Origin: Octopus sinensis
Taxonomy: Eukaryota
DNA length: 64,000 nt
Direction: 5' to 3'
Assembly: GCF_006345805.1 (NCBI RefSeq)
Contig: NC_043001.1
Location: 86,242,001-86,306,000 of the forward strand
Numbering within the stretch: position 1 is the stretch's first letter; each line of letters opens with the position of its first letter. Made by a program: the position numbers. Shown piece after piece: positions 49,401 through 51,314 of the stretch.

Positions 49401-51314
49401 ATTATTAATACCTTTAAGAAACCTAAATACCCCTCTGTGTGTGTATGTTTGTATGTGTACTTTACATAAAGAGCAGGTATATCCACTCGCGTTTGCTCAT
49501 TTTTAGTATAACTCTCCCAAGATACAGCAAAGACAAAAAGGTAATATCTCAAAATTCTTTTTCTGTTCTATTTTATTTTCCTAGGTGTTTTAATAAAACC
49601 ATTAAACTGTTCGACCGACTTGTGTTTTACTGATAGTATTCAATGGCTTTCTGCTTTCTGGTTTTGAGAACCCTAATTTCACAAAATTGGTATTTAGGCA
49701 GTGTGTTACATGTGTATGTAAGTATATATGTATGTAAGTATGTATGTATGTATGTATGTATGTATGTATGTATGTATGTATGTATGCATGTATGTCCGTA
49801 TGTATGTATATATGCATAGCTAGATAGATAAAAAGAAAGAAAGAAAGCTAGATAGATAGATAACTAGTAATACTACTACGTACAGTGGTAGATTAATATA
49901 CTTTGTTGAAAGAACACCTAAGGTCAGGCTGGAACAGCATCACATTCATTAGTTTTAGTCAATAAATACGTCACTCGCATTATAAAGTTTAGTATTATTT
50001 CTATCGAATTCGAAGGACCTATTATAATTTCTGAATTATTATATTTTTTCTCTCTTTTTCAGACGGTCTACCTCCTTCAGGTATGTAACATGTTTCATCC
50101 AAATTTACATTTTGTTTTTATTTCTTTGTACAGGCGGAACCCAAGGCTCATATATTCGTTAATTTACTCCTCTGTATTTAGCATCACAAATATCTGAACA
50201 CATTTTCTTCACTAATGTAAATTTCGAAATTTAAATTAAAATGCATAATATTACAAAAAAATTGAATCGCTTGAACGAAAACATTACATTATATTATGTA
50301 TTTTGGAAATGTTTGCTCTGTTTTACTTGTTATCCAAATTTCAAATTACATTCTGTATTCATGTTGGCATAACTTTGAGGCCTTCAGGATTTTTTCTCGA
50401 AAAGAATTCTGATTTGATCAAGTTCTAATACAGTAATACCACGCAGTACGAGTTTAATCCGATCCATGTCCGAGCTCATTTTACGATTTACTCGTTTTAC
50501 AAATCAATGTTCCCAATTGAAATCAATTAGAATATAATTAATTCGTTCCAGCCCCACTAAATTTATTTTTATGGGTTTTAAAACGGTAAAGGTGCAGTTA
50601 CAAGGAAAATGACAATTATAAAAACAATGAAAGGGAATACAAAAGAAATATTAAACTGGTTTTCTTAATTTAATTAACTTAAGGATGAGACGACTTTGTG
50701 CGTGAGGAAGACGGGGTGCGGGGAGGAGAATTATTGAAGGAAAATGTCCTTCTACTAAGACTTCAGGAAGAACAACTTCTGGCGTTTTCTCTCTTCGCTT
50801 AATTTAAGCTTTTTGGACAAACTTGCTTCACTTTTCACACATATGGGTTGTTTGATTAGAAACATATCAAGAGAAGTCTACTTCATCCTGCCTTTCAAAA
50901 TGTTTCGAAAATGCGCCAGAGCGGTATCATTAAATAAAGGAGGTGCTCGGCCTGTAGATACTTTTTCAGGCTAATTTTTTTCTACATATTCAGAAACATA
51001 CTACCACTTTGCCGACACTGCCTTTATGTCAGTAGTAGATATAGCCTTCTCCGCTACTCTCACCTCCTCCAAAGAACCAATCTCTTCTATCGCATCCGAA
51101 TGCTGCTGTTCCTTAAGCTGCAGGAGTTCATCTGTAATCAGCTCCTCTCGGTGTTCCTCGACAAGATCGCTAATGTCCCCATCATCAACCCCGAGACCCT
51201 TGGATTGCCAAGAGACACTATGTCCTCGATTACAGGTGTCTCGGGTGTCTAGATCCAAGGCTCCTTCATAGGAATTTCAACTTCAACAACAGGGTATTTA
51301 TGTTTGTTTGTATG

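What the first reader, a model, noticed from the sequence alone, without database searches (positions are those of the whole stretch)
49585..49667. Tandem duplication breakpoint inside a coding exon creates a premature-stop exon in mid-gene
Seen: the 105-nt exon at 57797-57901 has a 5' copy at 49585 with the same strong acceptor. After ...ATTCAATG (49645) it jumps to unit-1 intron sequence (39568, TG microhomology) and reads WLSAFWF-TGA. Inference: using this acceptor gives a VIT-vWA-linker protein lacking the C-terminal domain, or an NMD target. Skipping it joins exon D (phase 1) in frame to the second micro-exon set, doubling the linker and the Thr/Pro-rich segment. One rearrangement could yield both a short and a long isoform.
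Basis: partly seen in the sequence, partly recalled or inferred. Interest (0 to 1): 0.7.

Follow-up and report, generated by a model that had tools for sequence, protein, structure and literature searches.

The report
Young tandem duplication inside octopus ITIH-like gene
An octopus gene for a secreted ITIH-like protein carries a nearly identical 8-10 kb head-to-tail repeat that ends in the middle of a coding exon, leaving a cut-off exon copy with an early stop; this is either a very recent mutation or an assembly error, and it is an ordinary kind of structural change.

Summary
49585-49645 equals the first 61 nt of exon X (57797-57901), 61 of 61. The next 22 nt equal 39568-39589, 22 of 22. The frame reaches TGA at 49665-49667.

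The gene is an Octopus ITIH4-like VIT+VWA gene. Its last four exons match O. sinensis XP_036358751.1 at 100%, and all its main exons match the 854-aa O. vulgaris protein CAI9723172.1 at 87-100%.

They are 18-30 nt, all phase 1-1, and sit in a 1.87-kb intronic tandem array. Skipping the cut exon therefore stays in frame, as does splicing D directly to X.

New here:
- The two units (10,078 and 8,212 bp) differ by one 1.87-kb array unit, 4 substitutions and 5 small low-complexity indels.
- That is about 0.05% divergence, so the duplication is either very young or a false duplication in the assembly.
- The orthologue protein has a single exon D equivalent.

No reads or RNA could be checked, so reality and isoform use remain open. 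This is a known kind of event and of low interest.

The parts
2553..2630 (+). Exon 1 (start codon, signal-peptide-like N-terminus)
   Evidence: tblastn of P0052 residues 1-26, 100%; GT donor.
16081..16238 (+). Exon 2 (start of the VIT region)
   Evidence: P0052 residues 26-79, 100%; splice sites read.
18223..18333 (+). Exon 3
   Evidence: P0052 residues 80-116, 100%.
18429..18679 (+). Exon 4
   Evidence: P0052 residues 116-199, 96.4%.
19974..20137 (+). Exon 5
   Evidence: P0052 residues 200-254; donor read.
28703..28991 (+). Exon 6 (first half of the VWA domain, with the metal-site motif)
   Evidence: Pfam VWA E=2.3e-6 on this ORF; P0052 residues 255-350, 100%.
30145..30833 (+). Exon 7 (second half of the VWA domain and the following region)
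   Evidence: Pfam VWA E=8.8e-7; splice sites; identical to P0052 inside the exon.
37031..37103 (+). Exon C (73 nt, ends in phase 1)
   Evidence: Sequence; P0052 residues 579-604.
37759..37779 (+). Micro-exon E1 (21 nt, phase 1-1), outside the duplication
   Evidence: Splice scan; its translation equals P0052 residues 606-611.
38113..45707 (+). Intronic macro-tandem array R1-R4. Period is about 1.84-1.90 kb and units start at 38113, 40017, 41861 and 43730. Each unit carries an A-type and a B-type micro-exon copy.
   Evidence: Self-BLAST; pairwise substitution rates 1.0-3.2%; column-by-column alignment.
38160..38183 (+). Micro-exon A1 (24 nt, phase 1-1), outside the duplication
   Evidence: matches P0052 residues 613-619.
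39568..49645 (+). Duplication unit 1 (10,078 bp). It starts in the tail of R1 and ends at nt 61 of the exon X copy.
39993..40010 (+). Micro-exon B1 (18 nt, phase 1-1)
40064..40087 (+). Micro-exon A2 (24 nt; weaker donor, GTTAAT)
41861..43729 (+). Array unit R3, present in unit 1 and absent from unit 2. It is a mosaic: R4-like at the 5' end and R2-like at the 3' end, with about 8 further differences.
41908..41937 (+). Micro-exon A3 (30 nt)
   Evidence: P0052 residues 635-642, 100%.
43777..43806 (+). Micro-exon A4 (30 nt)
45635..45652 (+). Micro-exon B4 (18 nt). The B copies at the ends of R2 and R3 (41834-41860, 43703-43729) have CT in place of the GT donor.
47707..47817 (+). Exon D (111 nt, phase 1-1, Thr/Pro-rich)
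   Evidence: P0051 residues 1-37, 100%.
49585..49645 (+). X': truncated copy of exon X (its first 61 nt) with the same acceptor
   Evidence: 61 of 61 identical; 205 nt upstream identical.
49644..49646 (+). Duplication junction (between 49645 and 49646), with 2-nt TG microhomology
49646..49667 (+). R1-tail intron sequence read in frame after the junction: seven codons, then TGA at 49665-49667
   Evidence: 22 of 22 identical to 39568-39589; translation.
49646..57857 (+). Duplication unit 2 (8,212 bp)
50063..50080 (+). Micro-exon B1' (copy of B1)
50134..50157 (+). Micro-exon A2' (copy of A2)
51978..52007 (+). Micro-exon Ab'. It has the A3 state at its one variable base, and the rest of its array unit is like R4.
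53843..53860 (+). Micro-exon B4' (copy of B4)
55919..56029 (+). Exon D' (identical copy of D)
57797..57901 (+). Exon X (105 nt, phase 1-1), the first exon of the C-terminal domain
61011..61276 (+). Exon Y. The canonical AG at 61009-61010 puts it one base out of frame with X.
62390..62523 (+). Exon Z, with the stop codon

Best explanation
The window holds an Octopus (O. sinensis-type) gene for a secreted ITIH4-like protein. Its parts are a signal peptide, VIT, VWA, a linker built from symmetric micro-exons, and a Cys-containing C-terminal domain encoded by exons X, Y and Z.

A very recent direct tandem duplication of about 10 kb lies inside the gene. Its left breakpoint is in intron sequence within the first unit of an older 1.87-kb tandem array (39568). 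Its right breakpoint is after nt 61 of exon X (57857). The two ends are joined with 2 nt of microhomology, as non-homologous or replication-based repair would produce.

The result is this order: C, E1, A1, [B1 A2 A3 A4 B4 D X'] [B1' A2' Ab' B4' D' X] Y Z. One array unit was later lost from the second copy, probably by unequal exchange between R3 and R4.

Because all duplicated whole exons are phase 1-1 and multiples of three, three mRNA classes are possible:
- D->X directly, which carries no duplicated exon;
- D->B1'...D'->X, a linker longer by 67 codons;
- D->X', with a stop seven codons after the junction. This would give a truncated VIT-VWA-linker protein or a decay target.

Shown: the sequence anatomy, the exon identities, the phases, and the near-identity of the copies. 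Inferred: that the duplication is real in the animal, how it arose, and which splice path is used. I expect X' to be used less than X because it lacks its own donor. The allele would then most likely be a leaky, partly functional variant rather than a null, and polymorphic rather than fixed.
For: Junction and copies:
- 61 of 61 and 22 of 22 nt are identical, the microhomology is TG, and the junction word is unique.
- Outside the missing R3, the units show 0 substitutions and 1 indel over 39568-41860 against 49646-51930.
- They show 4 substitutions and 4 small indels over 43730-49645 against 51931-57857.
- The junction joins unrelated sequence (a unique exon and an intron array). Overlap-based assembly would not create such a join without reads that contain it (inference).
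- The window has no N, so the junction is not at a scaffold gap.
- At one of the 4 substitutions, unit 2 carries the R3 state (column 57). This is expected if unit 2 once held R3 and lost a unit by R3/R4 exchange.
- Divergence of 0.05% is about 25 times below the 1.22% heterozygosity reported for the sister species (PMC10700109, passages). This argues against two haplotypes laid in tandem.

Exons:
- tblastn of P0051 and P0052, Pfam, and micro-exon phases and sites.
- Paralogue linkers are highly variable and internally repetitive, so a longer linker is plausibly tolerated (inference).
Against: - No read-level or RNA evidence could be examined.
- The copies are almost identical. Five of the nine small differences are length changes in microsatellites or homopolymers, which is also what consensus errors look like.
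- The missing 1.87-kb unit could equally be a collapsed repeat.
- The O. sinensis reference assembly is reported to have 5.2% [50] duplicated BUSCOs, against 0.5% [5] and 0.4% [4] in O. vulgaris and O. bimaculoides (PMC10700109, Table 2 passage). That assembly therefore holds excess duplicated sequence.
- The X->Y junction is one base out of frame with canonical sites while the database protein reads through. This hints at base-level errors nearby.
- The O. vulgaris orthologue protein has one exon D equivalent and three, not four or seven, A-type pieces.
- The only O. sinensis protein found for this locus is a 204-aa model starting inside exon D.
Confidence: 0.55

Rival explanations
1. Assembly artefact. 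The animal has a single copy, and the assembly contains a false tandem duplication. Examples would be two contig ends overlapping by about 8-10 kb that were butt-joined instead of merged, or a chimeric read carried into the consensus. The merge may have failed because the two ends differ in the copy number of the 1.87-kb array. X' and its stop codon would then not exist in vivo.
For: - The units are about 99.95% identical: 4 substitutions in about 8,200 aligned nt. The five small indels are all in microsatellites or homopolymers.
- The only large difference is one unit of a tandem array, the kind of place where assemblers break or collapse.
- The overlap length is on the scale of one long read.
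- The assembly matched by the proteins has ten-fold more duplicated BUSCOs than its relatives (PMC10700109).
- There is a one-base frame anomaly at the exon Y acceptor.
- The orthologue has a single copy.
- TG microhomology is expected by chance at 18% of random joins.
Against: - There is no N or gap at or near the junction.
- The junction lies between non-homologous sequences, so a graph-based collapse or expansion cannot explain it without a supporting read.
- Haplotype-derived duplications should differ by roughly the heterozygosity (1.22% in the sister species), not by 0.05%.
Confidence: 0.4
2. A fixed, selected arrangement. The truncated exon would be a regulated alternative terminal or poison exon that the species uses to switch between a short VIT-VWA-linker protein and a long-linker full protein.
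For: - An annotated O. bimaculoides paralogue isoform (P0009) ends two or three residues after its exon X equivalent, so forms lacking Y and Z are modelled in the family.
- All duplicated exons are frame-neutral.
Against: - The copies are far too similar (0.05%) for an arrangement older than the population's coalescence time.
- The sister species' protein shows no doubling.
- X' has no donor of its own. Only one AATAAA lies in the 396 nt after the stop, which is about the number expected from base composition (composition; the expectation is my arithmetic).
- Nothing shows conservation of the junction.
Confidence: 0.05

Closest known systems
Intragenic (partial) tandem duplications with microhomology junctions, as catalogued among structural variants in many animals (named from general knowledge, not from a call)
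   Same: Direct head-to-tail copies, a junction between unrelated sequences with 2 nt of microhomology, duplicated internal exons, and a frame outcome that depends on exon phases.
   Different: One breakpoint falls inside a coding exon, so a truncated exon copy with an intact acceptor is left in mid-gene. The other breakpoint falls inside an older tandem array that itself carries micro-exons. Nothing is known about its frequency or expression.
[quoted passage not shown]
   Same: A signal-peptide-like N-terminus, a VIT domain and a VWA domain with a DxSxS metal-site motif. The closest database names are ITIH4-like.
   Different: No Pfam ITI_HC_C match on the C-terminal part (0 families for P0051). 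No DPHF cleavage/linkage motif in the orthologue. The linker is built from 18-30-nt symmetric micro-exons.
Poison exons / premature-stop cassette exons
   Same: An in-frame stop sits in a segment preceded by a strong acceptor. The stop lies upstream of several further exon junctions.
   Different: Not conserved, not shown to be spliced, and without a native donor. It was created by a breakpoint rather than evolved.
Micro-exon genes of schistosomes (recalled from the literature, not checked here)
   Same: A secreted protein whose middle is encoded by a run of very short symmetric exons, each a multiple of 3 nt. Any subset could be skipped without a frame shift.
   Different: Here there are only about 6-7 micro-exons in a linker between large conventional domains. 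They lie in a 1.87-kb genomic tandem array. No evidence of combinatorial splicing was seen.
False duplications in long-read assemblies (general knowledge; BUSCO figures from PMC10700109)
   Same: Near-identical adjacent copies, with differences concentrated in low-complexity tracts and repeat copy number.
   Different: No gap at the junction, and divergence well below heterozygosity.

Membership tests
ITIH family (VIT-VWA heavy chains) | VIT domain (PF08487) | tested here: met
   The orthologue P0052 has VIT at E=4.7e-25, residues 30-141, and those residues map to window exons 2-4 at 96-100%. Single window exons alone gave no VIT hit at E<=0.1.
ITIH family (VIT-VWA heavy chains) | VWA domain (PF00092) with a DxSxS metal-site motif | tested here: met
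   Window exons 6 and 7 give VWA at E=2.3e-6 and 8.8e-7. A DxSxS motif is found at P0052 residue 281, and exon 6 is 100% identical to P0052.
ITIH family (VIT-VWA heavy chains) | C-terminal ITI_HC_C domain (PF06668) | tested here: not met
   0 Pfam families for P0051 at E<=1, and none in that region of P0052. The Atlas feature search gave only a weak lead: score 0.90, 150 shared features, and the family present on 13% of the members of the best cluster.
ITIH family (VIT-VWA heavy chains) | DPHF-type cleavage and glycosaminoglycan-linkage site (feature recalled from the vertebrate literature) | tested here: not met
   Neither DPHF nor PHF occurs in P0052.
Genuine tandem segmental duplication | Direct, adjacent, near-identical copies with a defined junction | tested here: met
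Genuine tandem segmental duplication | Reads spanning the junction, with depth equal to the flanks | not testable with these tools
   No read data or eukaryotic genome collection is on hand. Genome contigs holds only bacteria and archaea and was not used.
Poison / premature-terminal exon | In-frame stop behind a functional acceptor | tested here: met
   The acceptor and the 205 nt upstream are identical to those of exon X. TGA lies at 49665-49667.
Poison / premature-terminal exon | A usable donor or poly(A) site, and inclusion in RNA | tested here: inconclusive
   Only cryptic donors in the (GTAT)n tract are present: exon ends at 49717, 49729 and 49733, matching 6-7 of 8 consensus positions. 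One AATAAA lies at 49961. No RNA data were available.
False assembly duplication | Adjacency to an assembly gap | tested here: not met
   The window contains no N.
False assembly duplication | Half depth over the copies | not testable with these tools
   No reads available.

The most novel reading that the evidence does not exclude
The duplication is real and segregating in O. sinensis. It would then be a live snapshot of how the linker of these secreted VIT-VWA proteins grows. An older 1.87-kb tandem array has already multiplied symmetric micro-exons. A new 10-kb duplication now adds four more micro-exons and a second Thr/Pro exon, and at the same time plants a truncating exon copy. One allele would therefore produce normal, long-linker and truncated products in proportions set by splice-site competition.
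Probability: 0.2. Interest if true: 0.4.

Novelty: new member of a known kind. Interest (0 to 1): 0.22.

Why it matters
If real, it is a clean natural example of a tandem duplication whose breakpoint cuts a coding exon. All the duplicated exons are frame-neutral, so the same allele can give a normal, a lengthened or a truncated protein. That would be useful for studying splice-site competition and linker evolution in cephalopod secreted proteins.

If it is an artefact, it marks a mis-assembled spot that has probably broken the gene model at this locus. The only O. sinensis protein found for it is a 204-aa fragment, whereas the sister species has an 854-aa protein.

Either way the practical value is local: it corrects the annotation of one gene.

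Tried and rejected
- Pfam on single exons of the VIT region and on exons D, X and Y gave 0 families. The domains were placed through the orthologue instead.
- tblastn of paralogue linker segments against the introns gave nothing significant. The first attempt failed on a BLAST option. The micro-exons were found only by a splice-site and phase scan and then confirmed with the orthologue's linker.
- Tandem Repeats Finder saw only the (GTAT)n tracts. Its period limit of 500 misses the 1.87-kb array, which self-BLAST showed.
- I took the 1.87-kb unit for transposon-derived because of a minus-strand ORF at 40931-41206. Pfam found nothing, so this was dropped.
- I first read the BLAST figure of 99.1% as the divergence of the copies. 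That figure came from aligning across the wrong array units. With R3 removed it is 99.95%.
- I considered that R3 arose in unit 1 after the duplication. This was rejected because R3 differs from an exact R4/R2 mosaic at about 8 sites, and R2 has 3 private changes that unit 2 shares. R3 is therefore older than the duplication.
- Haplotypes laid in tandem is judged unlikely because 0.05% is far below 1.22%.
- The absence of a 100% hit to exon 7 is not evidence that no full-length protein exists. The orthologue P0052 was hidden as a non-representative cluster member.
- The O. sinensis genome paper was not listed by two searches, so the assembler and any gap-closing method stayed unknown.
- A third search for ITIH in octopus gave one relevant paper. 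From it I saw only passages with a peptide table.

Full report
**What is at the coordinates**

- A script confirms that 49585-49645 equals 57797-57857, 61 of 61 nt.
- 49646-49667 equals 39568-39589, 22 of 22 nt.
- The 205 nt before the two acceptors are identical.
- The two sides of the junction share only TG.
- The 22-mer across the junction occurs once in the window.
- In the frame of the exon, seven new codons follow the junction and then TGA at 49665-49667.
- TG microhomology has no weight by itself: 18% of 200,000 random joins in this window have 2 nt or more.

**Which gene**

The + strand carries a multi-exon gene.
- Stop-to-stop ORFs at 28625-29023 and 30120-31082 hit Pfam VWA at E=2.3e-6 and 8.8e-7.
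- Exon Y finds XP_036358751.1 of O. sinensis (P0051, 204 aa) at 100%.
- P0051 matches exons D, X, Y and Z of the window at 100% inside the exons.
- Its 90% cluster also holds CAI9723172.1 of O. vulgaris (P0052, 854 aa).
- P0052 aligns to every main exon of the window at 87-100%. It has VIT (E=4.7e-25) and VWA (E=1.2e-16) but no ITI_HC_C.

The window is therefore an O. sinensis-type copy of this gene, and P0052 is its orthologue in the sister species. PMC10700109 states that the two species diverged about 2.5 million years ago (passages).

I searched exon by exon. I did not build or search a joined translation of the window. Full-length context comes from database proteins only.

**Exon structure around the finding**

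- Exon C (37031-37103) ends in phase 1.
- Exon D (47707-47817, 111 nt) and exon X (57797-57901, 105 nt) are both phase 1-1.
- A scan for strong acceptor-donor pairs in the C-D intron returned 40 pairs, of which 4 were multiples of three and open in phase 1. All four are 15-21 nt long, and three of them proved to be real micro-exons.
- The linker of P0052 (residues 605-649) then identified six pieces. All six are found in the window with AG and GT borders and lengths of 18-30 nt, every one a multiple of three. They are E1, A1, B1, A2, A3 (or A4) and B4.

According to PMC10700109 (passages) that annotation was built with Iso-Seq, RNA-seq, protein alignments and ab initio models. Whether this particular gene had transcript support I could not see.

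**An older repeat under the young one**

Positions 38113-45707 form four tandem units of about 1.87 kb, differing from each other by 1.0-3.2% in substitutions.
- Each unit carries one A-type micro-exon near its start and one B-type near its end.
- The B copies of units 2 and 3 have CT instead of the GT donor and are absent from the orthologue's protein.

The linker of this gene has grown before by tandem duplication of intron plus micro-exons. Paralogue linkers are also internally repetitive.

**The young duplication**

BLAST gave two overlapping alignments with different offsets, because unit 2 lacks one array unit. With the correct pairing:
- Unit 1 is 39568-49645 (10,078 bp) and unit 2 is 49646-57857 (8,212 bp).
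- 39568-41860 against 49646-51930 shows 0 substitutions and one 8-nt microsatellite indel.
- 43730-49645 against 51931-57857 shows 4 substitutions and 4 small indels of 8, 1, 3 and 1 nt, all in low-complexity tracts.
- The missing piece is R3 (41861-43729).

R3 is R4-like at its 5' end and R2-like at its 3' end, but with about 8 further differences. R2 has private changes that unit 2 shares. R3 therefore predates the duplication and was lost, or collapsed, in unit 2. At one of the four substitutions (43787 against 51988) unit 2 has the R3 base, as an R3/R4 exchange would leave.

The net divergence is about 0.05%.

**Consequences that follow from the sequence**

All whole exons inside the duplication are frame-neutral, so three mRNAs are possible:
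- D to X directly. It has no duplicated exon, but four A-type pieces against three in the orthologue.
- D to B1' and on through D' to X. The linker is longer by 18+24+30+18+111 nt, which is 67 codons.
- D to X', with the stop after seven new codons.

X' keeps the acceptor of X but has lost its donor. The nearest consensus-like donors lie in the (GTAT)n tract and would give exons of 133-149 nt that contain the stop. One AATAAA lies 294 nt after the stop, about what base composition predicts (my arithmetic).

Which path is used cannot be told without RNA.

**Real or artefact**

For a real variant:
- The junction joins unrelated unique and intronic sequence.
- There is no N in the window.
- The copies are about 25 times more alike than two haplotypes would be, if heterozygosity is near the 1.22% given for O. 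vulgaris (PMC10700109, main-text passage). The supplementary table behind that figure was not seen.

For an artefact:
- The copies are nearly identical.
- The differences look like consensus noise plus a repeat-unit miscount.
- The overlap is of read-length scale.
- The O. sinensis assembly shows 5.2% duplicated BUSCOs against 0.4-0.5% in its relatives (PMC10700109, Table 2 passage).
- The orthologue has a single copy.

I put the real variant at 0.55 and the artefact at 0.40. If real, the duplication is so young that it is almost certainly polymorphic.

**Annotation at the locus**

- The only O. sinensis protein I found for this gene starts at the ATG two bases into exon D or D' and covers D-X-Y-Z.
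- XP_036358745.1 (P0007, 1136 aa) shares its first 79 residues at 100% with window exons 1-2. It then matches the window at only 63-87% and has two VIT stretches, so it looks like a model chained across paralogues.

This fragmentation fits an open reading frame that is broken in the assembly, but it does not prove it. The database shows only cluster representatives, and proteins under 402 aa were not searched with exon 7.

**Comparison with known things**

The event is an intragenic tandem duplication of a familiar kind. The protein is ITIH-like by VIT and VWA but fails the ITI_HC_C and DPHF tests, so 'ITIH-like' is the right label. An Atlas lead to ITI_HC_C is weak. The symmetric micro-exon linker recalls schistosome micro-exon genes (recalled, not checked).

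In print I found only a proteomics paper on O. vulgaris ink. One of its peptide tables lists a peptide equal to residues 5-25 of P0052, which is window exon 1 (PMC10142993, passages; compared by eye). P0007 shares that exon, so the peptide is not specific to this gene.

**What stayed unchecked**

Not examined: reads, depth, RNA junctions, orthologous DNA, and the O. sinensis genome paper, which was not listed.

**Verdict**

This is a known kind of event of local interest, with a substantial chance of being an assembly error.

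Noticed in passing
window 61006-61016 (exon Y acceptor) with 57898-57903 (exon X donor): With the canonical donor (57901|GT) and the canonical AG (61009-61010), X and Y are one base out of frame, and the join reads a stop at once. Yet XP_036358751.1 and the O. vulgaris orthologue read straight through. That requires a GT..CA or TA..AG intron, or one more G in the true sequence. The likely causes are a 1-nt assembly error or a non-canonical splice.
   Followed up: partly
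window 38113-45707 (and 49646-53915 in the second unit): A 1.87-kb intronic tandem array carries one 24-30-nt and one 18-nt symmetric micro-exon per unit. Two of the 18-nt copies in unit 1, and one in unit 2, have lost their GT donor (CT instead). The linker of this protein family seems to grow by genomic tandem duplication.
   Followed up: yes
window 2553-2630 and 16081-16238 against protein P0007 (XP_036358745.1): This 1136-aa RefSeq model shares only its first 79 residues at 100% with the window. It then follows paralogous exons and contains two VIT stretches, so it looks like a chimeric model spanning neighbouring ITIH4-like paralogues.
   Followed up: partly
window 22193-24560 (- strand) and 24628-25053 (+ strand): Long ORFs with reverse transcriptase (RVT_1, E=5e-12 and 1e-15) lie in the intron between exons 5 and 6. 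They sit next to a + strand ORF with a weak endonuclease/exonuclease/phosphatase hit (E=8e-4). These are LINE-type retroelement remains.
   Followed up: partly
window 1047-1361 (- strand): An ORF with a weak mariner-type transposase hit (Transposase_1, E=0.0015, below the curated cut-off).
   Followed up: no
window 46689-46877 and 54901-55089 (+ strand), also 7812-8258: Short ORFs inside both duplication units carry a GIY-YIG-like stretch (Pfam E=0.023, below the cut-off). A similar-looking ORF at 7812-8258 had no Pfam hit. They may be remains of a mobile element.
   Followed up: partly
window 10127-10413 against 31702-31989; 2909-3148, 16586-16819, 35016-35246; 11962-12247 against 29140-29417: Dispersed repeat copies at 85-94% identity in both orientations, and abundant (TA)n, (CA)n and (GTAT)n microsatellites throughout. 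Window composition is about 65% A+T.
   Followed up: no
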